A DNA stretch of 64,000 bases from a virus. Lineage: Duplodnaviria > Caudoviricetes. The DNA is taken from the IMG/VR virus record IMGVR_UViG_3300030376_006203, positions 1 through 64,000 of that record, one strand, 5' to 3'. Each line of letters opens with the position of its first letter. Positions within the stretch are counted from its first letter, which is position 1. The translations under genes and the position numbers were made by a program. Below, piece after piece: positions 4,453 to 44,626 of this stretch. Below the pieces are notes generated by a model. It was given only the letters and a program-made list of their open reading frames with translations, made no database searches and was not told the origin of the DNA.

Positions 4453-5595
4453 ATGCAGGATACAAAAACAACCAGTCTATGTGAAATATGTTACCGTCAT
4501 TGCGAAGCAGAGCGAATTACAAAGCCTGATGGAATACATTTAATCAAACATTGTCCCGAGCATGGCACTAGTGATTATCTAGTGGAAGTTGATAAAGAAT
4601 TTTATGATAATTTAGTATATGATAAAACAGGATATTCTATACCGCAAGGTATAATGATAGAAGTAACTGATAAATGTAATTTAAATTGTCCACATTGTTA
4701 CCATCAACCTGATAACAAAACAGTTGATAAACCAATAGAACAAATACTATGGCAAATAGAAAACAGATTTAATCCAGATGCTGGTGCAGTAATTTTAGCA
4801 GGAGCAGAACCAACAGTGCGTAAAGACTTACCAGAACTTATAAAACAAATCAAACAATTACTTAAAAAACTAGGAAGACCAGAAGATGTGTGTATTCTTA
4901 CAAATGGTGTAAAACTTTCTGATAGGAAATGGGTAAAACAAATTGCTGACGCAGGCACAAACATGGTTATGATAGGAATGAATCATCACTCTTATCAAGG
5001 TATGAAAGTCCATCAAAAACAATTAAAAGGAATTGATAATTGTATTGCTGAAGGTGTATTTGTTTATTATGTTGGCTACACACTAGAACACGTGGATCAT
5101 ATGGAAGAAGTATTAGAAGAGATACAGGCTTTAGGAAACAAAGCATGGCAATACAGAATAAGAGCAGGATCAGACATTGGTAGATCACCAGATGAACCTC
5201 AATTCTTTTTGAGTAGGCACGTTGCTAAAATAAAAGAAATTTGCGATCGCAAAGGTTGGACTTGGGAAAAGAAACCTGCAGATGATAATTTATATCATTA
5301 CATGGTTAACATAAATGGAATACCACACAGAATTATACAATGGAGCGATCCTAAAACAATAGATATGGAACAATTACAGTGTGGTCCATGGTGCGACTTT
5401 GTGCCAGGCAAACCTGTGACTAATTTCCTACATCAAATTATGTTGCGTGATGCTGTGGTCAATGAAGGCAAAAGTTTACACGATACAGTGTCTACTCAAT
5501 ACACATTCCAACCAGAAAATGTAGATTATGAAATCACAGAATGGACTTGGAAAAGTTGGGACGAATCAAAAGTAAAACAAAAAAAATCTATTTAG
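4453..5595 (+). CDS. radical SAM protein with N-terminal CxxC...CxxHG extension
   Basis: CNLNCPHC (CxxxCxxC), GAEPT, LTNG; N-term TTSLCEIC...HCPEHG. Confidence 0.9.
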   Translation: MQDTKTTSLCEICYRHCEAERITKPDGIHLIKHCPEHGTSDYLVEVDKEFYDNLVYDKTGYSIPQGIMIEVTDKCNLNCPHCYHQPDNKTVDKPIEQILWQIENRFNPDAGAVILAGAEPTVRKDLPELIKQIKQLLKKLGRPEDVCILTNGVKLSDRKWVKQIADAGTNMVMIGMNHHSYQGMKVHQKQLKGIDNCIAEGVFVYYVGYTLEHVDHMEEVLEEIQALGNKAWQYRIRAGSDIGRSPDEPQFFLSRHVAKIKEICDRKGWTWEKKPADDNLYHYMVNINGIPHRIIQWSDPKTIDMEQLQCGPWCDFVPGKPVTNFLHQIMLRDAVVNEGKSLHDTVSTQYTFQPENVDYEITEWTWKSWDESKVKQKKSI

Positions 5596-33802: not shown

Positions 33803-33940
33803 TTAAACTGTCTTGTGACTGTTTCTGATAGTCCATCCATAAAAGTTTACTTTACTGGCAACTTTCATGTAGAACCTTGTAATGTCCTTTTTGACTGGCA
33901 TCAAGTATGGTACATTTCTTTGTCTGTTTCTTTTGATCAT
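33803..33940 (-). CDS. 45 aa basic protein (not in ORF track)
   Basis: MIKRNRQRNVPYLMPVKK...; TAATG coupling to upstream gene. Confidence 0.45.
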   Translation of the reverse strand: MIKRNRQRNVPYLMPVKKDITRFYMKVASKVNFYGWTIRNSHKTV

Positions 33941-34344
33941 TATTTTTTCTTCTTTTTAGTGGCAACATTGATTGCTTTACCACGTCTATCTGGGTTTGGA
34001 TCTTTTCTACGTTTTCTACGAGCCGCAGATGCTCTGCCTTTTTTGCCTAATGCGTATGCTTTTTTGGCAGGTAAACATTTAGGCTTACCTTCTCCATCTG
34101 ATTTACCGCCACATGAACCTCTGATTTTACCACCAGGACCCATGCGGACCCATTTTTGTTTGAACCATTTTTTAAGATTTTCGTCTAAGGATTCGTCTAG
34201 TAGTATATCGTGACAGTTTACACAGAAGTCTATGTGTTCTCTTTTAACACAGTTGGGTACTCTTTTTCCGAACATGGTCTTCATGCCCTTCTTTTCGTAA
34301 CCTTTCCAACAACGTGTTCCTTCTAGGATTTCGTTTACCTTCAT
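33940..34344 (-). CDS. basic modular protein, putative internal head protein
   Basis: start MKVNEILE; modules CWKGY..PNCVK and LKKWF..KW..KPKCLP separated by LDE. Confidence 0.7.
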   Translation of the reverse strand: MKVNEILEGTRCWKGYEKKGMKTMFGKRVPNCVKREHIDFCVNCHDILLDESLDENLKKWFKQKWVRMGPGGKIRGSCGGKSDGEGKPKCLPAKKAYALGKKGRASAARRKRRKDPNPDRRGKAINVATKKKKK

Positions 34345-35156
34345 TACTTTTTCTTGCTGTTGCCCCAATTAGCCGCGCCTTTTTTACGACACTGTACTAG
34401 AGCACCAGAGGCGTATGCCGAAGGCCAAACTTTGTATCTTGCTTTTACTTTGTGATAGCAGGCATCTTGCTTCTCTGCTAATTTTTCGAATTCTTCTTCT
34501 GTGATTGGTTTACCAACAAAATCTTCTAGAACTGCTTCAGTCTTTTTTTTTGAAGATTCTTTTAATTTGTTTTGTAATTTATTTGATAATGATTCTTTGT
34601 AGTCTTCTGTTTTACAATCTGGATGACAATTACAATTTGGTGTGCAGTTTCCTCCACAAGCACAATTCTCATCACAATTACAAGCCATTGATTCTTTAAC
34701 TTGTTCAACTGCTGGTTGTACTGCTTCTGCTGACTCACTTGATGAAATCATTTCGTATTCCATATAGTGTTTTACAGAACTCAAGTAGTCTGCCGCTTTT
34801 GTAATCTTAGCCGCTACCCAACCTTCTAAGCCTTGTTCTTCTGAAACATTTTTTAACAATTCATGAAGTTTAATTGAATACTTTGCCGCTTTGTATAAAT
34901 CTGATCTTGCCATTTGTACTTCATGATCCATCTCGGCTTTTTGTGCCATTAATGCTAGATCTTCTTGTACAGATTCTTTTTTCTTTTTGTTGTGTTGATC
35001 TTTAATTTTTCCTATTTCTTCAGCACTTGCGCCTTTACCTGCCGCACTTTGAATTTTTTTCATACCATCTTTGCCGTATTTTTTAACACCGGCTTTGTAC
35101 ATAATTCCGCTTTCGTCTGTTTCTTGGTCTTTTTTAATTAAATCTGAATGTTTCAT
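34344..35156 (-). CDS. modular protein with Cys-rich segment, putative internal head protein
   Basis: xxE-separated modules, LEGWVAAKITKA, DACYHKVK..WPSAYASGALVQCRK; TAAATA at 35162-35167. Confidence 0.7.
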   Translation of the reverse strand: MKHSDLIKKDQETDESGIMYKAGVKKYGKDGMKKIQSAAGKGASAEEIGKIKDQHNKKKKESVQEDLALMAQKAEMDHEVQMARSDLYKAAKYSIKLHELLKNVSEEQGLEGWVAAKITKAADYLSSVKHYMEYEMISSSESAEAVQPAVEQVKESMACNCDENCACGGNCTPNCNCHPDCKTEDYKESLSNKLQNKLKESSKKKTEAVLEDFVGKPITEEEFEKLAEKQDACYHKVKARYKVWPSAYASGALVQCRKKGAANWGNSKKK

Positions 35157-35164
35157 AATAATAT

Positions 35165-35395
35165 TTATCTTTTAATTGGAGCACCAAATAATGATGTTCC
35201 TTTCATATCTAAAGCATTATCAGTTGGTTTCTGCATTTTTGCTTTTGGTGGTTTAGCAGAAGCACCTTTTTTGCCATAGGCATCACGTGCTTTTTTATCA
35301 CCTATCGCTATGTGTGGATTAGCCACTGTGGCTATATTGCCCGCCGATGTAGCGCCTGCTGAAGCAACTTCTGATATGATGTCTCTGATACGCAT
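35165..35395 (-). CDS. small putative internal head protein
   Basis: start MRIRDIISE. Confidence 0.6.
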   Translation of the reverse strand: MRIRDIISEVASAGATSAGNIATVANPHIAIGDKKARDAYGKKGASAKPPKAKMQKPTDNALDMKGTSLFGAPIKR

Positions 35396-35399
35396 AATG

Positions 35400-35582
35400 T
35401 TATTTACCACCTTTGTGTAGATTCTTCACACGTTTGGATGTGCTGTATTTGGCGTGAGGTACTTTGAGGTTCTTTTTGCCGTATATGTCGCCCACTTTGT
35501 GCGTGTATACAAGTTGGGCAGGATCCAAACCATAATGGTAGTCCACACGGGCCTCCACTATTTTGAAATCCTTATAACGCAT
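35400..35582 (-). CDS. small putative internal head protein
   Basis: start MRYKDFKIVE. Confidence 0.55.
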   Translation of the reverse strand: MRYKDFKIVEARVDYHYGLDPAQLVYTHKVGDIYGKKNLKVPHAKYSTSKRVKNLHKGGK

Positions 35583-35583
35583 A

Positions 35584-35676
35584 CTACTTGAACTTTGCTT
35601 TGATTTTGTCCACAAGCAAACTTACTTTAGAACAAGTGTACCAAGTTTTTAACTTTTTCTTTGCTTTTTTCCACAT
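35584..35676 (-). CDS. 30 aa Lys-rich peptide (not in ORF track)
   Basis: MWKKAKKKLKTWYTCSKVSLLVDKIKAKFK fills the gap exactly, 1 nt from both neighbours. Confidence 0.45.
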   Translation of the reverse strand: MWKKAKKKLKTWYTCSKVSLLVDKIKAKFK

Positions 35677-35677
35677 A

Positions 35678-35920
35678 TTACAATAAGTTTTTAAGGTTTA
35701 ATATACCGTTGTCAATAATTGCTCTTTCATCAAGACTACCACCGGCACCTACTTCGCCTTCACCTGATCTCAATGCGTCTAAGCCTTCTATGTATTTTTC
35801 TTCTGTGATATCACCAGCCTCAAATCTTGTTTTCAAAGACAATACTGAAGAAGCAGTCTCCTTAACCCAACCTGATCTAGAATCACGAGCATTCACTAAT
35901 CTATCTAAAAATTCAGCCAT
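35678..35920 (-). CDS. hypothetical protein
   Basis: start MAEFLDRL after AAGGA SD; TAAATA at 35944-35949. Confidence 0.6.
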   Translation of the reverse strand: MAEFLDRLVNARDSRSGWVKETASSVLSLKTRFEAGDITEEKYIEGLDALRSGEGEVGAGGSLDERAIIDNGILNLKNLL

Positions 35921-35946
35921 TTTGTTTCCTTTTTGTTTGTGTGTAT

Positions 35947-36261
35947 TTATGCTTTTTTGCGTCCTGACTTCATATTCGCACACCAGTGGTACATTTTGCC
36001 CTTTTCACCACCATGCTTCTTGGCTTTTGCCCTTAATGAAGTTACTGATCCTGAACAACTAGCACCTGCTTTTTTTACTCTACCTGGACGTGATTTTCCT
36101 TTTACTTTGCCATCAGCAAAGTTTTCGTTGGCTTTATTGTTACCAACATTCTTAAAACCATATCTATTGTTAGGGCCATATCCTTTTTTATGAATAAGTC
36201 CCATGGGTTTTGCCGTGTGAGGCATTACTCTATTGCGTTCTATAATATCTATTATCTTCAT
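35947..36261 (-). CDS. basic putative internal head protein
   Basis: start MKIIDIIE; ANE|NFADGK...WCANMKSG module. Confidence 0.65.
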   Translation of the reverse strand: MKIIDIIERNRVMPHTAKPMGLIHKKGYGPNNRYGFKNVGNNKANENFADGKVKGKSRPGRVKKAGASCSGSVTSLRAKAKKHGGEKGKMYHWCANMKSGRKKA

Positions 36262-36983
36262 CTCAGTCTAGGTGGACGACCTTTTTTGTCTATTTTAAAT
36301 CCAAATTTTGCCGCTTGTCTTTGTGTTTCGCCAGGCTTAACATCAGCGGTTGTATTTTGTTTTGTAATAATTCCAACACCTTCTTTTTTAGATTGTTGTT
36401 GTTTTGTGTAAGTTTCCAATGCTGATTTAACTTTGCTTAATGAATCTCTATTTGCTTGATACAATATACCAAATCCGCCAGCCTGTTGCCAACGTTGAAT
36501 ATTGATAGGTCTATCGTCAATTAAAATGTTTGGTACTTTTGTTTGCTTGTTTACAGCATACGATTCTTTTCTGCCAGTGATAATTGTTTCAGCAGGCTGT
36601 TCAATATTGTTACTAATCCAAACTTTTTTATATTTTGCTGAATTGGCATTATCGCCTCTTAATGGTGAAGAACAAATTGAAAAAGTTCCACCTGTAAAAT
36701 CTTTAACCATTTTTATTAATTGATCAGCAGATGGAAATTTAGGTAATGTTTCAAAGAAATTAGTTCCTGTAATTTTCTGTATAACCTCAGATTTTAAATC
36801 TTTAGTTCTATCAGAAGTAAGTTCCTTCCAGTGCTTTACACCGTACAGTTTTTCAAGACCACCGAAGAAGTCAGCCATCACTCCGTCCATGTCCAAATAT
36901 ACAATTGGTTTCTTTTCCATATCTTCATTATACAACTTTTTGTTGTATTTGTCAATATTGGATTCTAAGTCCAAAATACGCAT
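36258..36983 (-). CDS. 5'(3')-deoxyribonucleotidase (HAD) with N- and C-terminal appended modules
   Basis: YLDMDGVMADF, ICSSP, K, LIDDR. Confidence 0.85.
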   Translation of the reverse strand: MRILDLESNIDKYNKKLYNEDMEKKPIVYLDMDGVMADFFGGLEKLYGVKHWKELTSDRTKDLKSEVIQKITGTNFFETLPKFPSADQLIKMVKDFTGGTFSICSSPLRGDNANSAKYKKVWISNNIEQPAETIITGRKESYAVNKQTKVPNILIDDRPINIQRWQQAGGFGILYQANRDSLSKVKSALETYTKQQQSKKEGVGIITKQNTTADVKPGETQRQAAKFGFKIDKKGRPPRLR

Positions 36984-38992
36984 TAATTGAAACCTAAATG
37001 TGTGACTTCCGGATATTTTGATTTGATTTTTCTAGCAAGTTCATTGTGTAGTTTTACTTGCTGATTCATATAACCTTCAGGTTTACCACCTGAAATCATT
37101 GTAGGACCATCTGGATTTTTATCTACTGTTGTTGGTTCTTCTGGTGATGGTTTACCAATATTCTTTTTTAACCATTGTGTTGATACACCAATAAATTCGT
37201 CAATTGGTACAGCACTCATGTCTTCAAAGTCAGCAGGATAACCTAATGCTGATAAAAATTGTCGCATACTAGCATTACTCAAATAAGGAGTATCTAACTC
37301 TTTGTCTTTTGCCCATGCCATTGGAAATTCAAAAACAGTTGTTTTTTCTCCATCTAATTCTTTTTCAGTTTTAAAATAAGGGATCATTGAAGCACCTTCT
37401 TTAACTGAATCTTCATTATCAATAGAAGCCGCTACTGGTTCAGGTTGTTGTCCAATTTGCTGTGTTGGTTCTTGATCAGGACTTAAATTTACTTTACCAA
37501 GTTCAACAGCAACTTTATTTAAATTTCCTTTTAATGTGCCTGCTGATATTTTTGATCCTGGCGCAAACATTTTCTTCAAATCTCCTTGAGCATCCATTCT
37601 TTTAAATGCATCAGGATGTTTAGGCGCCACATATTTTCTTAGATATGCTACAACTAAATCTGCAGGATATCCTTGAGATACATCTGTTTGATTTAAACCT
37701 ACCACTGTGTTGATGTCTTTGAATAAAGTCTGCATCTGAACTTTTGCTTGATCATCTGCTTGTACTTTTGCCGCTGTTGCTGGATCATACAATGCTTTCA
37801 CTTGATCCGGAACAATTTTTCTACCTGCCGCTTTTAAAGTGTCTAACCAACCTTCATCTAAATAAGTTCCTTCGTTTACTGATTCGTTGCTTATGCCGTG
37901 TGATGCTAATACTATACTCATCGCATCTGCTAGTCCTACTTTTTCTTTCATGTTCATTTGTTTTATATCACTAGTGTCACCGTGATCATTAAAAACTTTT
38001 ATGTATGTGTCTATGTCTGCTGGATCAAATCCTGCTTTGTTTAAAATATCTTCACTTCTATAATCTAAGTCTTCAGTTGTTGGTTTATTCATTGTGATAG
38101 TAAACTTATCACCTTCAAAGTCTACATCTTTACCTGTAATTAATTTGTACATTTTAGCCAACAGTCTATTGTCGTACTCTGGTCTTCCGTGTCCTTTTTG
38201 CGGTTCTTTAATTTTGTCTGCTAACATTTGAACAAATGCTGATTTGTCTAAACGCATTTCACCTTCGTTAGTGTCTTGTGACATACCTTTATTTTTTCTG
38301 TTTACATAGTAGTCACTCATTTTGCCATAGCCATGTCTCCAAGCCATTTGACGCAATCTTGTGTCATCAAAATCTTTGAATCTGTCTGCTAGTTCTTTGT
38401 CTGACATATGAGCAAGTTTTTCTTTGTGTTTGATAATACTTGCTGGCATTCTTTCAGCAACTTTTGTTTGATGATCTTCCCAAAAATCTCCAGCCATGTC
38501 AATCACATTATTGTAAGTGTCAACAAATTCTTCCATGTCCATTGATTGTGCATCATCCGCCATGTGTTTGTATTGTTGTATGTCAACTATTCCATATAGT
38601 TTGTCAAAACTTTTAATATGTGGATAATGACCTTCTTCAATAGAATTTTCTGTTCTTAATGCTGATCTTTGAAATCCTTTTGCTAAAAATTCTTTTTCAC
38701 GTTCTGCTGGGATCATTATAGTCTTACCATCTTTGTGAACGTACAAAGTCTTGCCCATGGCACCCATTCTTTTCATATCGGTAGCCTGTACGCCATCTTC
38801 TGATTTTGGTAAGTTTTTATCTGCCCAGGCATCTAGAGCCGCTTTACGTTTCATGAAGTTTAATTTTCCAACTTGAGCATACTGTTTAGGATCTTTTTGT
38901 ATGTCCTGTAAGGCTTTCATCAATTCACGATAGTGTGCTTCGTCTCTTGGCTCTACGTATTTGAACTCTCTTAAAAAATCTATTAACTTCAT
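36983..38992 (-). CDS. large modular protein, putative internal head polyprotein
   Basis: start MKLIDFLRE; many xxE junctions (IEE, VAE, TNE, VNE, LDE, VKE). Confidence 0.65.
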   Translation of the reverse strand: MKLIDFLREFKYVEPRDEAHYRELMKALQDIQKDPKQYAQVGKLNFMKRKAALDAWADKNLPKSEDGVQATDMKRMGAMGKTLYVHKDGKTIMIPAEREKEFLAKGFQRSALRTENSIEEGHYPHIKSFDKLYGIVDIQQYKHMADDAQSMDMEEFVDTYNNVIDMAGDFWEDHQTKVAERMPASIIKHKEKLAHMSDKELADRFKDFDDTRLRQMAWRHGYGKMSDYYVNRKNKGMSQDTNEGEMRLDKSAFVQMLADKIKEPQKGHGRPEYDNRLLAKMYKLITGKDVDFEGDKFTITMNKPTTEDLDYRSEDILNKAGFDPADIDTYIKVFNDHGDTSDIKQMNMKEKVGLADAMSIVLASHGISNESVNEGTYLDEGWLDTLKAAGRKIVPDQVKALYDPATAAKVQADDQAKVQMQTLFKDINTVVGLNQTDVSQGYPADLVVAYLRKYVAPKHPDAFKRMDAQGDLKKMFAPGSKISAGTLKGNLNKVAVELGKVNLSPDQEPTQQIGQQPEPVAASIDNEDSVKEGASMIPYFKTEKELDGEKTTVFEFPMAWAKDKELDTPYLSNASMRQFLSALGYPADFEDMSAVPIDEFIGVSTQWLKKNIGKPSPEEPTTVDKNPDGPTMISGGKPEGYMNQQVKLHNELARKIKSKYPEVTHLGFN

Positions 38993-39198
38993 TTCTTTCT
39001 GCTCCTAAACTGTACTGGTCCTGTCATATATGGTTTAGAAAACCATAATTTAAACCAGTCAGGATCTCCTGGTTTTAAGCCTAATTTTCTTTCTTTTTTC
39101 TTTAAAGCGGTTGCCGTAGCACTAATATTTTCACCCATAGAATCTTCGTTGTATGGTTTATAGATGCCTGCCAAACGTTTTAAATCGTCTATGTTCAT
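38989..39198 (-). CDS. small hypothetical protein
   Basis: DDLKRLAGI, KPGDPDWFKLWF. Confidence 0.65.
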   Translation of the reverse strand: MNIDDLKRLAGIYKPYNEDSMGENISATATALKKKERKLGLKPGDPDWFKLWFSKPYMTGPVQFRSRKK

Positions 39199-39200
39199 AT

Positions 39201-39776
39201 TTATACTGTCACAGGATCTAATTGTAGTCCTGTTCTCACCTGGTTATACATTTCTTCTGCTGTTTTAGGGTCTATAGGGACAGCATTAATAAATGTTCTT
39301 TTGTCCCCACGTGCCGCTAAATCACGCATTTTTGAAGCACTCATGCCTTCTAATCCTTGTGCGTCAGGATCTCTTTCACCTGCACTTACTACTTTGATAG
39401 AATTAAAATTGTAATCTCTGCCATTGTACTTGTTTAATAATTCATTGAATTCATTTACTCTATCAGAACCTGCCACATATATTATATCTGTGTAACCCAT
39501 TTGTTCCAACTTCTGCATTGCTTGTACCCACGTTCTTACTGCTTTGTCTCCAACCTTAATCATTGGAAACATTTTTTGAGCAAAGGTTAATTTTTGTGAA
39601 AATGATAATGGATCTGTTTTTGCGTTTTGAGTATGCGTAATAAAGATAAAAGGATCACCAGGCTGTGCTTTGATAACTTCCCCAATTTTTTTATGTCCTG
39701 CTGTTGGTGGATTCATTCTGCCAAAGGCAAAAACAGCGGTTTTACTAGGTGCTTCTAAAATCTCCGTGATTAGCAT
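39201..39776 (-). CDS. HIGH-type nucleotidyltransferase (cytidyltransferase-like)
   Basis: FGRMNPPTAGH, DPLS, AGSDR, SAGERDPD, MSASKMR; start MLITEILE. Confidence 0.85.
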   Translation of the reverse strand: MLITEILEAPSKTAVFAFGRMNPPTAGHKKIGEVIKAQPGDPFIFITHTQNAKTDPLSFSQKLTFAQKMFPMIKVGDKAVRTWVQAMQKLEQMGYTDIIYVAGSDRVNEFNELLNKYNGRDYNFNSIKVVSAGERDPDAQGLEGMSASKMRDLAARGDKRTFINAVPIDPKTAEEMYNQVRTGLQLDPVTV

Positions 39777-40084
39777 TACTGCTCCTCATTTTCTTTTTCG
39801 GCATCCATCATTCTTTGCATTAACAAATTTTTATCTTCTGGAGTAATTTGATCTGCTATTTGTTTTGGAATTTTGTATTTCATGCAGTATTCTTTGATGC
39901 ATGAATCTATTAAAGGCATAACTGCTTCATTATCGCCAGTTTGTTTACACTTGTTCATTGTAGGATAATAATTTTTTCTGTAAAAATCATCATCATTCAT
40001 CATGTAGAAATAAACGTCATCCATTAGATCATAATCTAATTTAGGTTCTTTTTCTATATGATTAAATTCAGTTAGTCTTACCAT
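39776..40084 (-). CDS. hypothetical protein
   Basis: 102 aa ORF, start MVRLTEF. Confidence 0.6.
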   Translation of the reverse strand: MVRLTEFNHIEKEPKLDYDLMDDVYFYMMNDDDFYRKNYYPTMNKCKQTGDNEAVMPLIDSCIKEYCMKYKIPKQIADQITPEDKNLLMQRMMDAEKENEEQ

Positions 40085-40665
40085 TTTCTACAACTCCAAT
40101 ATCTTGCTTTTGTTCTAGGTCCTGGATTAGCACAGTTGTGTCTTGCTCTAAAACTTCTACGTCTAGCAGGATTAGATTTTTTAATTCTCATATTAGGATC
40201 ACCAAAGTTTACTTTTTTAATGTTTTTTGTTTTTGGATCTCTCACATACACTTTAAACTTTTTTACATCACCCTGCATTGGCTTGCCTAATTTTACTTTA
40301 CGTCCTCTGTATTCTGCTTCGTCTAATGAATCATCTTCATCAAACCACATATCACCATATGCTTCAAAAAAGTCATCACCTTCGTATGTTTCTTCACTTG
40401 GATCATTGTCACTTACTTCTAACACAAAGTCTTCAAGACCTTGTTCTTTGTAAAGTAATTCTATATCCTCTGCTAAATCATCTGATTCAACTTGTTCTAG
40501 TTGTCTGTGTAATTCAACAGTTAATACGTGCTGACCATCTACATTTTCGAAAGTCACATATTTCGTTTCATCTTCTAGTAAGCCAATTGTGCTTAAATTT
40601 ACTGCTGTGTTGATTTCATCCTCTGTAAAAGGAGTGTCTTTAATTATGTTAAAATAGTGATGCAT
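40078..40665 (-). CDS. acidic N-domain + basic C-terminal module
   Basis: LDE|AEYRGRKVKLGKP...VNFGDP...SFRARHNC...YWSCRKW. Confidence 0.7.
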   Translation of the reverse strand: MHHYFNIIKDTPFTEDEINTAVNLSTIGLLEDETKYVTFENVDGQHVLTVELHRQLEQVESDDLAEDIELLYKEQGLEDFVLEVSDNDPSEETYEGDDFFEAYGDMWFDEDDSLDEAEYRGRKVKLGKPMQGDVKKFKVYVRDPKTKNIKKVNFGDPNMRIKKSNPARRRSFRARHNCANPGPRTKARYWSCRKW

Positions 40666-40669
40666 AGTT

Positions 40670-41023
40670 TTAATGATTTAATAATATTGAGTTAATTGTT
40701 CCATCTGTGTAAGTTATATGTGCTCTTACCCACACAAAATTTCCTGTAAAGTTAAAAACAAAAGCACCATCTTTGCCTGCTGTTGTACTGTCATATGTAG
40801 TGCCATCTACATCAAACCAATCAGCATCTGCTGGAGTAGTTGCTAGTGTGCCTTGTATTTTAATTGTGCCTGCAACACCGTTAACATTCATTTGAACAGT
40901 GTGAAAACCATCAGATCTACCGTAGTATCCATCACCTTTAAACTTTTCACCCACAACTGTTTCAACCGTGCTATCGCCCGGATGCGTAGTTGCTGGTAGT
41001 ATTATTTCGCTTGTTGCTGGCAT
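40670..41023 (-). CDS. small beta-rich virion protein (putative)
   Basis: GDGYYG..DG.HTV, FTGNFVWVRA; TAAATA 7 nt before ATG (41031-41036). Confidence 0.55.
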   Translation of the reverse strand: MPATSEIILPATTHPGDSTVETVVGEKFKGDGYYGRSDGFHTVQMNVNGVAGTIKIQGTLATTPADADWFDVDGTTYDSTTAGKDGAFVFNFTGNFVWVRAHITYTDGTINSILLNH

Positions 41024-41057
41024 ATGTGTATATTTAGCCTATTGGGCGGTTTGATGT

Positions 41058-43307
41058 TTAGGCTTGTTTCTCAAGCAATTTAACACCGTCGCCTATGTCT
41101 AGTGCTAGTTTTTTATCTTTTACTGTGACCTTAACTACACCACCGTTTTTAAGCGATCCAAACAGTAGTTCTTTTGAAAGATCCTTTTTAATTTTGTTAT
41201 CAATCAATCTCTGCATAGGTCTAGCACCCATTTTGTCATCATAGCCATGCTCAACCAAATAGTCGATTGCTTCATCTGTAAGTTCTAAAGCAACATCTTT
41301 TTCTTTTAATTGTGTTTTTAAATCTAGCATAAATTTGCCCACAATTTTAATTAATACTTCTTTAGCAAGTTTTTTGAATACAACTGTGCCATCTAATCTA
41401 TTTCTAAATTCAGGAGCAAAGAAACGTTTCATATCTTTATCATCATATTCTACATCTTTAACTGCGTTGAAACCCATTACGTTTTTGTCTGCTTGATCGG
41501 CACCTAAATTAGTTGTTAGTATCAAACATATATTTTTAGCACTGGCTGTTTTACCATTGTTTCCTTGTATAGAACCTTCATCCATTATTTGTAATAATAT
41601 TTGTGAAACATCAGGGTGTGCTTTTTCTACTTCGTCTAATAGCAACACACAGTTTGGATATTCTTGTAATTTTGTAACTAACAGTCCTGTGTTTTCTTCA
41701 AACCCTACATAACCTGGAGGTGAGCCTATTAGTTTAGCCACTGCGTGTTTCTCTTGATATTCTGACATATCAAATCTTACAAGTTTAACACCTAATTGTT
41801 CTGCCAACTGTTTTGCTGTTTCAGTTTTACCACATCCTGTTGGACCCATAAACACAAATGAACCTATAGGTTTATTATCACGTTTCAAGCCTGCTTGAGC
41901 AACTAACACTTTATCAACAACCATATCTATTGCTTCATCTTGTCCGTAAACATTTGCTTTCATGTTTTTAGATAGATTTGCTAGGTTACTAGATTCTTTT
42001 TCAGCAATTGATTCTACAGGCATTTTAACCAATTTAGATAATTCATATTGAATAGATTCATCATTTACTGTTCTATCTGATTGCTTTTCTTTTAGATTAA
42101 ATCTAGAACAAGCCAAGTCTATCAAGTCAATTGCTTTATCAGGCAATTTTTTATCTGTTTGATATTTTATACTTAATTTTACTGCGGCTGTGATAGCATC
42201 ATCAGTAATTGTCGCATTATGAAAGTCTTCGTAATACTTTTTAAGTCCTTGTAAAATTTCTAGTGTTGTTTCTTTGTTTGGTTCATCTACAGTAATTCTA
42301 GCAAAACGTCTCATTAATGCTCTGTCTTTTTCAAAATACTTTCTGTATTCTTCCCAAGTTGTAGAAGCAACAACTTTAAGTTCACCTTTAGTCAACACAG
42401 GTTTCAATAAGTTTGCTAAATCATTGGCAGTGTTTCCACCACCGCCTGCACCTGCTCCTGATATATTGTGTGCTTCATCTATAAAGCAAATTGCTTTGCC
42501 TTTTTTCTTCAAACCATTAAGAACCATTTTGAATCTTTCTTCAAAATCACCTCTGTATTTAGAACCAGCCAACATTGCTCCAATATCTAAATTGTAAACT
42601 TCATATCCTTTTAAAAATTCAGGACAAGTTTCATTTACTATATTGAATGCTAAACCTTCTGCTATTGCTGTTTTACCTACGCCAGGATCACCAACAAGTA
42701 TCACATTGTTTTTCATTCTTCTTCCAATAGTAAGTGCTATTTGATTTAGTTCATCTATTCTGCCAATTACAGGATCTATTTTTTTCTTTTTAACTTCAGC
42801 ATTCAAATTAGATGTATATTTGTTTAATGCTCTTTTAGTTTCAGTTTGATCAACTTCATCTTCAAATATTTCTTCTATTTCACTATGTAGGTAGTCCATA
42901 AATTTTTCTTTATCAACTTTTGCTTGTACAAGGAAATAATATGCCCAACTTTTTGTTTCACTCATTAAACTTAAAAATACATCTGTTAAGTCTATATTTG
43001 TTCTACCACTGAATAAAACTTGCGTGAATGCTCTGTTTAGCACTCTTTCAACACTAATAGTTTTTTTAGGCTTGTATTTGGCAACTGATAATTTAATGCC
43101 ATCTAGTTTATGATCAAGATATGTAATCAGATGTGTTTTTAAATTATCCACATCAGTGCCGTAACCTTTTAATATATTACAGAATTTTTCATCTTCGCAC
43201 ATAGAAAACAGCATATGTTCAAGAGTAACATATTCGTGCTTGTATGACTTGGATAAATTTACTGCTCTATCAAATACACTTTGTAAAGCACCACTAGGTT
43301 CAACCAT
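41058..43307 (-). CDS. clpA: ATP-dependent Clp protease ATP-binding subunit ClpA
   Basis: N-domain HEYVTLEH, GDPGVGKT/FIDEAH, GPTGCGKT/LLDEVEK, MGF ClpP-docking loop, GARPM. Confidence 0.93.
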   Translation of the reverse strand: MVEPSGALQSVFDRAVNLSKSYKHEYVTLEHMLFSMCEDEKFCNILKGYGTDVDNLKTHLITYLDHKLDGIKLSVAKYKPKKTISVERVLNRAFTQVLFSGRTNIDLTDVFLSLMSETKSWAYYFLVQAKVDKEKFMDYLHSEIEEIFEDEVDQTETKRALNKYTSNLNAEVKKKKIDPVIGRIDELNQIALTIGRRMKNNVILVGDPGVGKTAIAEGLAFNIVNETCPEFLKGYEVYNLDIGAMLAGSKYRGDFEERFKMVLNGLKKKGKAICFIDEAHNISGAGAGGGGNTANDLANLLKPVLTKGELKVVASTTWEEYRKYFEKDRALMRRFARITVDEPNKETTLEILQGLKKYYEDFHNATITDDAITAAVKLSIKYQTDKKLPDKAIDLIDLACSRFNLKEKQSDRTVNDESIQYELSKLVKMPVESIAEKESSNLANLSKNMKANVYGQDEAIDMVVDKVLVAQAGLKRDNKPIGSFVFMGPTGCGKTETAKQLAEQLGVKLVRFDMSEYQEKHAVAKLIGSPPGYVGFEENTGLLVTKLQEYPNCVLLLDEVEKAHPDVSQILLQIMDEGSIQGNNGKTASAKNICLILTTNLGADQADKNVMGFNAVKDVEYDDKDMKRFFAPEFRNRLDGTVVFKKLAKEVLIKIVGKFMLDLKTQLKEKDVALELTDEAIDYLVEHGYDDKMGARPMQRLIDNKIKKDLSKELLFGSLKNGGVVKVTVKDKKLALDIGDGVKLLEKQA

Positions 43308-43791
43308 TTACAAATCCTTTTAATATTTTTTCTTGTTTCTTTTTTGCCATTTCCAAACGCATTTTTGAAACTCTTTGATCAAAGGTAATGCCTTGAAGAT
43401 GGTCGTATTCATGTAAAAATACTCTTGCATGAAAACCTTCTAACTTAATTATACATTCTTTTTGCTGTGTGTCAAGGTATTTTACGCCTATAATATCAGG
43501 TCTTTTTACTTTCATAAACAGTCCTGGAAAACTTAAACACCCTTCCATCATTTCAACTTTATTTGTGCTTACTTCTGTAATCATAGGATTAATTATTGTC
43601 ATAGGTTTGTCTTCACCCATAATAAAAATTTGGGCATCCAATCCTACTTGATTAGCCGCTAATCCTACACCTTCATATTTTTTCATTATATCAAACATTT
43701 CGGTAGAAATTTTTTCTGCGTCCATAGTATTGAAATCGAAATCCTTTACTTTCTTTTCTAAAAATTCATCAGGTGCTTTAATTAATTTCAT
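43300..43791 (-). CDS. def: peptide deformylase
   Basis: [21 protein letters not shown]. Confidence 0.95.
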
Positions 43792-44626
43792 TTTTAATCC
43801 TTGTTAATGTTTCTACCCATTCTGCCTTGCTTACTGACGGTATATCTGCTTGAATTGTCAAATATATATTTCCTCGTCTTCCGCCTCTTGTAGGCAAGCC
43901 TTGTTCACTAATACTTAATACAGTGCCAGGTTGTGTGCCTTTAGGAATTGATATTGCCAAATTTCTTCCTTCAAGTGTTGTGATTGTGTGTTTTGTTCCT
44001 AACATTAGGTCAAATACATTTACTCTTTCAATACAATGTAAGTTCACTCCATCTCTTGAATACTTTGCGTGAGGTCTAATTTTTACTCTAACAAGTAGAT
44101 CTCCTCTAGGTAAATGCTTTTGTAAATCATCTCCTAATGATGGAAATTTTATTGTGCTGTTGTTTGCTACTCCTTTTGGTAAACTTAAATTAACACTTTG
44201 CTCACGACCATTTGTCAGTCTATATGAAGCAACTAGTTCTTTGCCTTTTAAAACATCTTCCAACTCAATCTGTGCTTCTATTATGATGTCTCTATTTTTT
44301 CTTGGCTGTTGTTGTCTTCTTCCGAATGGACTTCCTCCTCCGAAAAATTGATTGAACACATCACCTATATCTTGTGGAAAGTCATCAGTTCTAAATTCAT
44401 ATGATCTATGTCCGCCTTGATTAGCATTTGGAGTCGAACCAAATCTATCATAATAGGATTTCTTTTGCGGATCTTTTAAAGTATCATATGCCTCATTTAA
44501 TTTTTGAAATTGAGCACTGTCGCCACCTTTATCAGGATGGTGTTTCATGGCTTGCTTTTTGTATGCTTTTTTAATTTCTGCCTCAGATGCGTTTCTATTC
44601 ACGCCTAATGTTTTATATAAATCCAT
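43778..44626 (-). CDS. dnaJ: DnaJ/CbpA-type co-chaperone (no Zn finger)
   Basis: J-domain HHPDK, G/F region, GDLLV C-terminal domain. Confidence 0.9.

What the first reader, a model, noticed from the sequence alone, without database searches (positions are those of the whole stretch)
33940..40665. Cluster of proteins with a shared capsid-targeting-like N-terminus and xxE-delimited modules: candidate packaged polyprotein cargo system
Seen: neighbouring genes begin MKVNEILE, MKHSDLIK, MRIRDIISE, MRYKDFKIVE, MKIIDIIE, MRILDLE, MKLIDFLRE, MLITEILE and MVRLTEF, roughly M-[KR]-h-x-[DE]-h-h-(x)-E. Inside these proteins, unrelated short and often K/R-rich modules begin right after LDE, VQE, VKE, LAE, ANE, IEE, VAE, TNE or VNE (e.g. 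LDE|NLKKWF, LAE|KQDACYH, ANE|NFADGK, LDE|AEYRGRK, LDE|GWLDTLK, VKE|GASMIPY). Late-type TAAATA boxes occur in the region. Established: T4 internal proteins carry an N-terminal capsid targeting sequence (MKTYQEFIAE) and are cut after Glu by the gp21 prohead protease. Inference: this 7 kb locus encodes a library of polyproteins packaged into the head, cut into many small peptides and possibly injected as DNA-condensing, anti-defence or host-takeover effectors, with modules shuffling between genes.
Basis: partly seen in the sequence, partly recalled or inferred. Interest (0 to 1): 0.85.

Follow-up and report, generated by a model that had tools for sequence, protein, structure and literature searches.

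The report
Capsid-addressed cargo polyproteins of marine phage
A marine jumbo phage has a late-gene cluster whose proteins begin with a T4-like "load me into the capsid" tag and are built from exchangeable modules joined at head-protease cutting motifs; this probably explains how enzymes and small basic proteins get into phage heads, but it has not been measured for this phage.

Summary
On the minus strand, 33940-40665 holds 12 co-oriented genes. A strict N-terminal pattern (M, K/R, hydrophobic, x, D/E, two hydrophobics, optional x, E) hits 4 of 13 locus genes against 2 of 217 elsewhere in the 148-kb contig (p=9e-5), and none of 1036 internal Met sites.

The tag resembles the T4 capsid targeting sequence. 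It sits on unrelated proteins: a nucleotidase, an NMNAT-like nucleotidyltransferase and small basic modules.

Homologues show that modules are cassettes bounded by hydrophobic-x-Glu:
- One module has Glu before it in 151 of 151 cases (65 contexts), another in 90 of 90.
- In relatives an internal junction is replaced by a gene start carrying the tag.
- A g8 module turns up inside g2 of a near-identical strain, again after L-D-E.

The mature modules are strongly basic and the linkers acidic.

Homologues are mass-spectrometry-confirmed virion proteins in cyanophage S-SCSM1. All four relatives tested encode a gp21-type (S77) protease that cuts after Glu.

Not shown: cleavage, packaging or injection in this phage. 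The partial contig also lacks the protease gene.

Verdict: a new variant of the T4 internal-protein system. The scan noted similar systems on other DNA.

The parts
33940..34344 (-). g1, 134 aa: 8-residue tag, then a basic Cys-pair hairpin module (aa 9-36), an acidic linker, and an 79-aa basic module after L-D-E (aa 56-134, nt 33943-34179)
   Evidence: Net charges are +7, -6 and +25.
34344..35156 (-). g2, 270 aa: weak tag, acidic helical body, Cys-rich stretch, and a C-terminal DUF5872-like basic module (aa 229-270, nt 34347-34472)
   Evidence: A near-identical strain carries an extra g8-type module inserted after L-D-E.
35165..35395 (-). g3, 76 aa: 9-residue tag followed by a Glu-free basic protein. 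Its only hydrophobic-x-Glu site is the end of the tag.
35400..35582 (-). g4, 60 aa: 10-residue tag followed by a Glu-free basic protein. It is conserved in related contigs, although some gene callers miss it.
35678..35920 (-). g5, 80 aa, acidic, no tag, own TAAATA box upstream
35947..36261 (-). g6, 104 aa: tag followed by two basic modules. The second (aa 48-104, nt 35950-36120) starts after A-N-E. In relative L018 the tag is fused directly to that module.
36258..36983 (-). g7, 241 aa: tag-like extension of about 24 aa, an NT5C-type 5'(3')-deoxyribonucleotidase domain, and a basic tail
   Evidence: In relatives the tag's Glu is replaced by Asp.
36983..38992 (-). g8, 669 aa: tag followed by a chain of at least 8 cassettes. 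The last is a 137-aa folded module after V-K-E (aa 533-669, nt 36986-37396).
38989..39198 (-). g9, 69 aa: different N-terminal motif (D-L-K-R-L-A-G-I type) followed by a basic module
   Evidence: The same motif serves as an internal linker in relatives.
39201..39776 (-). g10, 191 aa: 8-residue tag placed directly before the first strand of an NMNAT/cytidylyltransferase-like fold
39776..40084 (-). g11, 102 aa, acidic, weak tag
40078..40665 (-). g12, 195 aa: untagged acidic pro-region (net charge -32), then a basic 79-aa module after L-D-E (aa 117-195, nt 40081-40317)
40670..41023 (-). 117-aa gene heading the run. It matches a PHROG annotated as virion structural protein.
41031..41036 (-). TAAATA late-type box 7 nt upstream of the first gene of the run. 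Genes from here down to g6 abut or overlap.
35944..35949 (-). TAAATA box upstream of g5
35401..35406 (-). TAAATA box upstream of g3
35162..35167 (-). TAAATA box upstream of g2

Best explanation
The locus is a hypervariable set of late genes for internal head (cargo) proteins of a marine T4-related jumbo phage.

Proposed mechanism:
1. Each precursor carries an 8-10-residue amphipathic N-terminal address that works like the T4 capsid targeting sequence and brings it into the prohead core.
2. A gp21-type (Peptidase S77) prohead protease then cuts after Glu of a hydrophobic-x-Glu motif. It cuts at the end of the tag and at every module junction.
3. The acidic tags, linkers and pro-regions leave the head.
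4. The basic mini-domains (net +7 to +25) and the tagged enzymes (NMNAT-like nucleotidyltransferase, nucleotidase) stay with the DNA and presumably enter the host with it.

Because each module is a self-contained product flanked by cut sites, modules can be inserted, deleted, permuted or split into separate genes without loss of function. This would explain the cassette-like variation.

Shown here: tag enrichment, the junction rule, cassette exchange, the charge pattern and late-type promoters. Inferred: targeting, cleavage, retention and ejection.
For: Tag:
- It is enriched in the locus and absent at internal Met sites.
- Its spacing of hydrophobic positions and terminal Glu matches the T4 CTS. 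In T4, residues 4 and 7 target and residues 8 and 10 direct processing (PMC9026906).
- It sits on unrelated folds: NT5C and a nucleotidyltransferase in the window; Fe/Mn SOD and DUF6267 elsewhere in the contig.
- It is kept in g10 homologues at 57-66% identity and in the Syn9, P-SSM2 and Melnitz enzymes. The Rak2-like phage Munch homologue lacks it and starts at the first strand. The tag is therefore an add-on and not part of the fold.

Junction rule:
- g1 module: P1 is Glu in 151 of 151 cases and P3 is L/V/I/M in 140 of 151, over 65 upstream contexts.
- g8 C-terminal module: P1 is Glu in 90 of 90 and P3 is hydrophobic in 90 of 90, with P2 variable. Of these, 33 lie directly behind 21 different N-terminal tags.
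- g12 module: it follows L/V/I-x-E in three independent contexts.
- All 8 indel or permutation borders in the g8 orthologue alignment have Glu at P1.
- L018 splits g8 at the V-K-E junction into a gene that begins with a tag.
- Strain L013 has a g8 module inserted in g2 after L-D-E, and a new module between the g1 tag and module A.
- Siphophage Kolga encodes two of the modules as stand-alone genes that begin at the module start.
- AF2 gives pLDDT below 50 for the tag and for pre-junction residues. A confident fold begins right after the junction.

Charge: the modules are basic and the linkers acidic.

Virion evidence in relatives:
- S-SCSM1 ORF29 (g1 and g2 modules) and ORF91 (38% identical to g10, with a T4-like tag) are annotated virion proteins in the record; the paper lists 45 MS-detected virion proteins and names ORF91.
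- NMNAT-like proteins are reported in four cyanophage virion proteomes.

Protease:
- S77 proteases are present in 121Q, Vibrio phage 2.275.O, HTVC008M and S-SCSM1.
- Enzymes of this family all cut after Glu.
- In the Vibrio phage, an 80-aa gene between portal and protease starts with the same tag.

Promoters: the locus shares late-type boxes with tail-fibre genes.
Against: - There are no proteomic or biochemical data for this phage.
- No S77 protease or gp23-type capsid gene is found on the 148-kb contig. CheckV estimates the contig at 41% complete, so this is inconclusive.
- About half of the g8 junctions have K, R, T or Q rather than a hydrophobic residue at P3.
- AF2 places the L-D-E-N junction of g1 at the start of a helix, so the motif could be partly structural.
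- A regex scan of HTVC008M found no canonical tag, although that phage has the protease and the modules.
- In S-SCSM1 only two genes carry the tag and only one of them is annotated as a virion protein.
- Glu depletion relative to Asp in the mature modules is only weak (11 against 19, p=0.08).
- SOD, nucleotidase and NMNAT-like enzymes are also ordinary cytoplasmic auxiliary genes.
Confidence: 0.68

Rival explanations
1. The proteins are processed polyproteins, but the cutting and the action take place in the infected cytoplasm and not in the capsid. The tag would then be a protease-docking or propeptide element, and the products would be ordinary intracellular auxiliary proteins.
For: - The junction rule argues for cleavage but does not say where it happens.
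- SOD, nucleotidase and NMNAT-like enzymes are typical cytoplasmic functions.
- No virion data exist for this phage.
Against: - Homologues are found in purified virions.
- The tag matches a sequence shown in T4 to be sufficient for encapsidation.
- The same tag heads a gene in the prohead-core slot of a relative.
- The known Glu-specific phage proteases of this kind act inside proheads.
Confidence: 0.12
2. There is no cleavage. These are ordinary multi-domain proteins whose domains are joined by a conserved acidic linker. The N-terminal motif would be a short amphipathic helix with another role, such as oligomerisation, chaperone or ClpA recognition, or translation-initiation bias.
For: - AF2 puts the g1 junction at a helix start.
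- A ClpA-like ATPase, DnaJ and peptide deformylase lie next to the locus.
- AT-rich second codons are common in this genome.
Against: - P1 is Glu and never Asp in 241 of 241 cases, while P2 varies freely.
- The same rule holds for at least five unrelated module types.
- N-terminal tags and internal junctions are interchangeable.
- Stand-alone genes in Kolga begin at the module start.
- Cyanophages without the ClpA gene use the same tags.
Confidence: 0.12
3. The shared N-terminus is a leader recognised by a modifying or exporting enzyme. Candidates are a RiPP-type or radical-SAM maturase, or a double-glycine leader for the contig's type I secretion-like genes.
For:
- The contig encodes TolC-, HlyD- and ABC-like genes according to other notes.
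- An ORF at 4654-5595 has a Cys motif that looks radical-SAM-like (not tested).
Against: - The tags are 8-10 residues long, degenerate, and end in Glu. They have no Gly-Gly.
- Identical junction motifs occur inside proteins.
- Cyanophages and Melnitz, which share the tags, were not seen with those genes nearby.
- No maturase is adjacent to the locus.
Confidence: 0.03

Closest known systems
Phage T4 internal proteins IPI, IPII, IPIII and Alt, with the capsid targeting sequence and gp21 processing
   Same: - A roughly 10-residue N-terminal address with spaced hydrophobic positions, ending in Glu.
- Cutting after hydrophobic-x-Glu.
- Small, highly basic mature proteins plus at least one packaged enzyme.
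- A hypervariable locus.
   Different: - Many more cargo types, including an NMNAT-like enzyme, a nucleotidase, and SOD and DUF6267 elsewhere in the contig.
- Multi-module precursors with a cut motif at every junction.
- The tag is one residue shorter.
- The host phage is a marine relative of Rak2/121Q-type jumbo phages.
- Nothing has been tested experimentally.
T4 prohead core proteins gp22, gp67 and gp68, which gp21 cuts into several fragments
   Same: One precursor is cut at several Glu sites inside the prohead, and the acidic fragments leave.
   Different: In T4 the fragments are scaffold debris. Here the pieces are conserved, folded or basic modules that also exist as independent genes.
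Inner-body and ejection proteins of phiKZ, 201phi2-1 and SPN3US
   Same: Many head-internal proteins are matured by an S77-related protease that cuts after Glu. Their propeptides hold several cut sites.
   Different: Those proteases prefer Ser, Ala or Gly at P3. Here P3 is Ile, Val or Leu, as in T4. There is no sequence relation among the cargo.
Virion-associated NMNAT/cytidylyltransferase-like proteins and kinases of cyanomyoviruses (S-SCSM1, S-CBWM1, S-SZBM1, S-CREM2)
   Same: g10 is 38% identical to the S-SCSM1 virion enzyme. Homologues of the g2 module are fused to kinase domains that carry the same tag.
   Different: The papers report the proteins in virions but, in the passages I read, give no loading signal or processing rule.
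Polyvalent proteins of phages and conjugative elements (Iyer et al. 2017; recalled from my own knowledge, not read here)
   Same: Mosaic proteins of exchangeable modules, thought to be delivered with the DNA.
   Different: Those are very large, dominated by enzymatic anti-defence domains, and often carry their own peptidase or a MuF domain. Here the modules are mostly tiny basic domains and the processing motif is that of the head protease.

Membership tests
T4-type CTS-directed internal head proteins | N-terminal address of about 10 residues with spaced hydrophobic positions and a terminal Glu | tested here: met
   compared with the T4 sequence and mutational data
T4-type CTS-directed internal head proteins | The address is portable, being found on unrelated proteins and not part of their folds | tested here: met
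   It sits on NT5C, a nucleotidyltransferase, SOD, DUF6267 and basic modules. The Munch homologue lacks it. The tag is disordered in AF2.
T4-type CTS-directed internal head proteins | The same phage encodes a gp21-type (Peptidase S77) prohead protease | tested here: inconclusive
   None is found on the 148-kb contig, which is estimated 41% complete. It is present in all four relatives tested.
T4-type CTS-directed internal head proteins | Cleavage after Glu of a hydrophobic-x-Glu motif | not testable with these tools
   The comparative signature is consistent: Glu at P1 in 241 of 241 cases and an L/V/I/M/F residue at P3 in 230 of 241.
T4-type CTS-directed internal head proteins | The protein is present inside the virion | not testable with these tools
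   Homologues S-SCSM1 ORF29 and ORF91 are annotated virion proteins in the record; ORF91 is named in the paper's MS proteome.
T4-type CTS-directed internal head proteins | Small, highly basic mature products | tested here: met
   Net charge is +7 to +25 for modules of 28-79 aa.
T4-type CTS-directed internal head proteins | A hypervariable locus among close relatives | tested here: met
   g8 has 551-844 aa or is split. g2 has 229-392 aa. Genes are gained and lost.
phiKZ/SPN3US-type inner-body proteins | Cut motif with Ser, Ala or Gly at P3 | tested here: not met
   P3 is Ile, Val, Leu, Met or Phe in 230 of 241 junctions.
Polyvalent proteins | Very large protein with several enzymatic conflict domains and its own peptidase or MuF domain | tested here: not met
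   No such Pfam or PHROG domain is found in g1-g12. The largest protein has 669 aa.
Pfam DUF5872 / DUF6321 | Score above the family's gathering threshold | tested here: inconclusive
   The window's proteins give no hit. Relatives of the g2 module score 14-20 bits against a cut-off of 27.5. A DUF6321 module passes in relative P0124 only.
Double-glycine or RiPP-type leader peptides | A leader ending in Gly-Gly (or a comparable site) next to a dedicated maturase or exporter | tested here: not met
   The tags end in Glu and no maturase is adjacent.

The most novel reading that the evidence does not exclude
A shared 'cargo code' runs through marine T4-related phages: cyanomyoviruses, SAR11 and OM43 myophages, and Rak2-like marine jumbo phages. 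An 8-10-residue address plus hydrophobic-x-Glu junctions would let any module be loaded into the head and released there. Modules include tiny basic DNA-binding domains such as DUF5872 and DUF6321, NMNAT-like enzymes, kinases, a nucleotidase, SOD and a ligase-like enzyme.

Thousands of mosaic 'hypothetical proteins' in ocean viromes would then be head-cargo polyproteins, with modules traded as cassettes. This would also explain why metabolic enzymes keep turning up in cyanophage virion proteomes.
Probability: 0.45. Interest if true: 0.8.

Novelty: new variant of a known kind. Interest (0 to 1): 0.62.

Why it matters
It would turn a large class of unannotated mosaic proteins into a predictable category. 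One module alone occurs in at least 2392 clusters at 50% identity, and another in at least 8000 proteins.

It offers a sequence rule for predicting which phage proteins travel in the capsid, and so act first in the host. It explains published but unexplained virion-proteome hits (NMNAT-like enzymes, kinases). It also gives a ready-made, testable address and cut-site system in ecologically dominant ocean phages.

A simple re-search of existing virion mass-spectrometry data could test it, because the rule predicts the exact neo-N-termini.

Tried and rejected
- PF03420 and PF07068 searches of the contig, and tblastn with four relatives' proteases, found no head protease or gp23-type capsid gene. 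The contig is partial, so this says little.
- The longer ENA contig of the same phage could not be searched whole.
- A tag-versus-virion table for S-SCSM1 was too small to test: two tagged genes, one annotated as a virion protein.
- The S-SCSM1 supplement holds no peptide-level data.
- The AF2 model of g1 was only moderate (pLDDT 66) and Foldseek gave nothing.
- The confident model of the g8 C-terminal module (pLDDT 83) had no match by Foldseek or VIA-align (best Z 5.0, within noise), so no function could be read from the fold.
- Glu-versus-Asp depletion in the mature modules was only weak.
- The regex scan found no canonical tag in HTVC008M.
- tblastn of g1 against phage records was blunted by the low-complexity filter.
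- The Pfam OAR hit in g6 is probably a low-complexity artefact.
- Literature searches for a prior description of the tag or the modules in marine phages found none in the held library.
- I considered and rejected three readings for the reasons given under rivals: a translation-initiation bias, a ClpA degron, and a secretion or RiPP leader.
- I ran no complex prediction, because the binding partner (scaffold or capsid protein) of this phage is not in hand.


Full report
WHAT THE DNA IS
The window is the first 64 kb of a 148,056-bp linear IMG/VR viral contig with about 35% G+C. CheckV estimates it at 41% complete. Its family-B DNA polymerase is closest (44-50% identity) to those of Rak2/121Q-type jumbo myoviruses, Vibrio phage 2.275.O and Sinorhizobium phage Phosso. 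Many small genes are shared with T4-like cyanophages and pelagiphage HTVC008M. Near-identical contigs are common in ocean metagenomes.

THE OBSERVATION
On the minus strand, 33940-40665 holds twelve co-oriented, mostly abutting genes, here called g1 to g12. Independent gene calls on sister contigs agree with these starts.

I called 230 genes on the contig and tested two patterns:
- The strict pattern is M, K/R, hydrophobic, x, D/E, hydrophobic, hydrophobic or Thr, optional x, E. It hits 4 of 13 locus genes and 2 of 217 others (Fisher p=8.8e-5).
- A looser pattern hits 6 of 13 against 6 of 217 (p=7e-6).
- Neither pattern matches any of 1036 internal Met positions.

The outside hits are themselves clustered at contig 115.3-120 kb. 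Single cases sit on an Fe/Mn superoxide dismutase (contig 75,464-76,018) and on a small basic protein (135,218-135,454). The tags of g2 and g11 are weak. g5, g9 and g12 have none.

THE TAG IS A PORTABLE ADD-ON
It precedes unrelated folds:
- an NT5C-type nucleotidase (g7);
- an NMNAT/cytidylyltransferase-like enzyme (g10), where it sits directly before the first strand and the nucleotide-binding motif;
- SOD and a DUF6267 ligase-like protein elsewhere in the contig;
- several tiny basic proteins.

Homologues of g10 at 57-66% identity keep an equivalent 8-9-residue extension ending in Glu. So do the cytidylyltransferases of Syn9, P-SSM2 and Methylophilales phage Melnitz. The homologue in the Rak2-like Salmonella phage Munch lacks the extension and begins at the first strand. 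AlphaFold2 leaves the g1 tag at pLDDT below 50.

The spacing fits the T4 capsid targeting sequence with a one-residue shift. In T4, residues 4 and 7 direct targeting and residues 8 and 10 direct processing, and Asp at position 10 blocks cutting (PMC8442874, PMC9026906).

THE JUNCTION RULE
This is the strongest result.

The basic C-terminal module of g1 occurs in at least 2392 clusters at 50% identity. Among the 150 best hits it appears 151 times in 65 different upstream contexts. The residue two before its first Leu is Glu in 151 of 151 cases. Two positions further upstream stands Leu, Val, Ile or Met in 140 of 151. Where the module opens a protein, an 8-9-residue tag takes the place of the internal linker.

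The C-terminal folded module of g8 shows the same pattern:
- Glu is at P1 in 90 of 90 cases.
- A hydrophobic residue is at P3 in 90 of 90.
- P2 varies freely.
- 33 copies lie directly behind 21 different N-terminal tags, and 57 lie behind internal linkers in 12 contexts.

The g12 module follows L/V/I-x-E in g12, in HTVC008M gp131 and in cytidylyltransferase fusions.

The DUF5872-like module of g2 occurs in at least 8000 proteins, some fused to kinase or GTPase domains that carry the tag. Here the conserved block extends upstream of the quoted L-A-E site, so that one boundary is not exact.

CASSETTE EXCHANGE IN ORTHOLOGOUS LOCI
Nine related IMG/VR contigs keep the locus in synteny.
- g8 has 551, 627, 669, 782 or 844 residues.
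- Its pieces are present, absent or permuted, and all eight borders have Glu at P1.
- In L018, g8 is split. The last module is a separate gene whose tag ends exactly where g8 has its V-K-E junction.
- In L018, the g6 tag is fused directly to the second module of g6.
- In a nearly identical strain (L013), a module otherwise found in g8 is inserted in g2 right after L-D-E. A new module also lies between the g1 tag and its first module, with the junction recreated.
- In siphophage Kolga, which is not T4-like, two of the modules are stand-alone genes that begin at the module start, next to a head-morphogenesis gene.
- AlphaFold2 models the g8 C-terminal module confidently (pLDDT 83, pTM 0.76). The nine residues before the junction are disordered.

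CHARGE AND EXPRESSION
The putative mature small modules have net charges of +7 to +25. The tags, linkers and the g12 pro-region (-32) are acidic. This is the pattern of T4's basic internal proteins with discarded acidic fragments.

A GATAAATA-type box lies 5-35 nt upstream of tail-fibre genes. It also precedes the first gene of this run, g5, g3, g2, the tagged SOD and several genes of the second cluster. This is consistent with late co-expression. TAAATA as such is not enriched in the locus.

LINK TO VIRIONS AND TO A PROTEASE
In cyanophage S-SCSM1, whose virion proteome was determined by mass spectrometry (PMC9602691):
- ORF29 strings together the g1 and g2 modules, and its GenBank record annotates it as a virion protein.
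- ORF91 is an NMNAT-like enzyme 38% identical to g10. It begins with a T4-like tag and is a virion protein.
- ORF91 lies in a run of five virion-protein genes.

NMNAT-like enzymes and kinases are reported in the virions of four cyanomyoviruses (PMC10665884).

A gp21-type Peptidase S77 gene is present in 121Q, Vibrio phage 2.275.O, HTVC008M and S-SCSM1. Characterised members of this protease family all cut after Glu (PMC5694885).

In the Vibrio phage, the 80-residue gene between portal and protease starts with the same tag. This is the slot of T4's prohead core proteins. Its capsid protein also has several hydrophobic-x-Glu sites in its N-terminal region.

The present contig has no protease or capsid gene. 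For a 41% fragment this is inconclusive.

READING
The most economical explanation is a T4-type internal-protein system enlarged into modular precursors. An address brings them into the prohead core. The head protease removes the tag and separates the modules. Basic modules and tagged enzymes remain with the DNA.

I put this at about 0.68. The remainder is divided between three alternatives:
- cleavage without encapsidation;
- uncleaved multi-domain proteins with a conserved linker;
- a leader for some other enzyme.

Points against the main reading:
- There are no data on this phage.
- P3 is non-hydrophobic at about half of the g8 junctions.
- The helix-start position of the g1 junction in the model means the motif could be partly structural.
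- HTVC008M has no canonical tags.
- The Glu-versus-Asp bias in the mature modules is weak.

What the cargo does is unknown. The folds gave no match. DNA charge neutralisation by the basic modules and early metabolic or counter-defence action by the enzymes are guesses.

NOVELTY
The T4 capsid targeting sequence, the hypervariable internal-protein genes and Glu-specific head proteases are textbook. A review already suggested that the address lets T4-like phages load varied proteins.

I did not find the following in the held literature:
- the cassette architecture with a cut motif at every module border;
- its extent across ocean phage proteins;
- its use as the likely loading route of the virion-associated enzymes seen in cyanophage proteomes.

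Earlier notes of this scan describe similar tag-and-junction systems on other phage DNA. They are unverified AI notes and I did not count them as evidence.

Noticed in passing
Contig 115,300-120,000 (outside the window; L003:11300-16000): A second cluster of tagged genes lies next to a 396-aa acidic protein. It includes three small basic proteins, a 124-aa protein and a DUF6267 ligase-like enzyme. PHROG 455 joins that enzyme's family to the g10 nucleotidyltransferase family in one profile.
   Followed up: partly
Contig 75,464-76,018 (L004:11464-12018): An Fe/Mn superoxide dismutase carries the same N-terminal tag and its own GATAAATA box, which makes it a candidate capsid-packaged SOD.
   Followed up: partly
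Window 35165-35395 (g3): The stretch just after the g3 tag resembles the N-terminal region of the Vibrio phage 2.275.O major capsid protein, just after one of that protein's hydrophobic-x-Glu sites. It looks as if g3 copies the capsid protein's maturation junction.
   Followed up: no
Window 38989-39198 (g9); also L017 and P0427-type relatives: A second recurrent motif of the type (D/E)-L-x-R-(L/I)-x-K-L-A-G-(L/I) opens g9. In relatives it serves as an internal linker followed by G-E and a module. It may be another address or linker class.
   Followed up: no
Window 36986-37396 (g8 C-terminal module): This module gives a confident AF2 fold (pLDDT 83) with no clear relative in the PDB by Foldseek or VIA-align. 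It is conserved and often a stand-alone tagged gene.
   Followed up: yes
Whole contig: TAAATA is strongly strand-biased (81 on the minus strand, 28 on the plus strand). It lies within 60 nt upstream of 48 of 230 genes, including tail-fibre genes, and is probably the late promoter core of this phage.
   Followed up: partly
Window 41058-44626, and contig 139,546-143,197: The phage encodes a full chaperone set. A ClpA/B-like ATPase, peptide deformylase and DnaJ lie right next to the cargo locus. GroEL-like and DnaK-like genes lie near the contig end.
   Followed up: no
L059 (Pelagibacter phage Kolga gp56, gp57): Two of the basic modules exist as separate 79-aa and 32-aa genes beside the head-morphogenesis gene of a siphovirus.
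   Followed up: yes
Window 4654-5595: This ORF starts with a Cys-x3-Cys-x2-Cys-like motif suggestive of a radical-SAM enzyme. I did not examine it.
   Followed up: no
L028 and L029 (prohead proteases of S-SCSM1 and HTVC008M): The proteases themselves begin with a tag-like N-terminus (M-K-L-I, then acidic and hydrophobic residues). This recalls the suggestion in the T4 literature that gp21 is targeted by its own propeptide.
   Followed up: no
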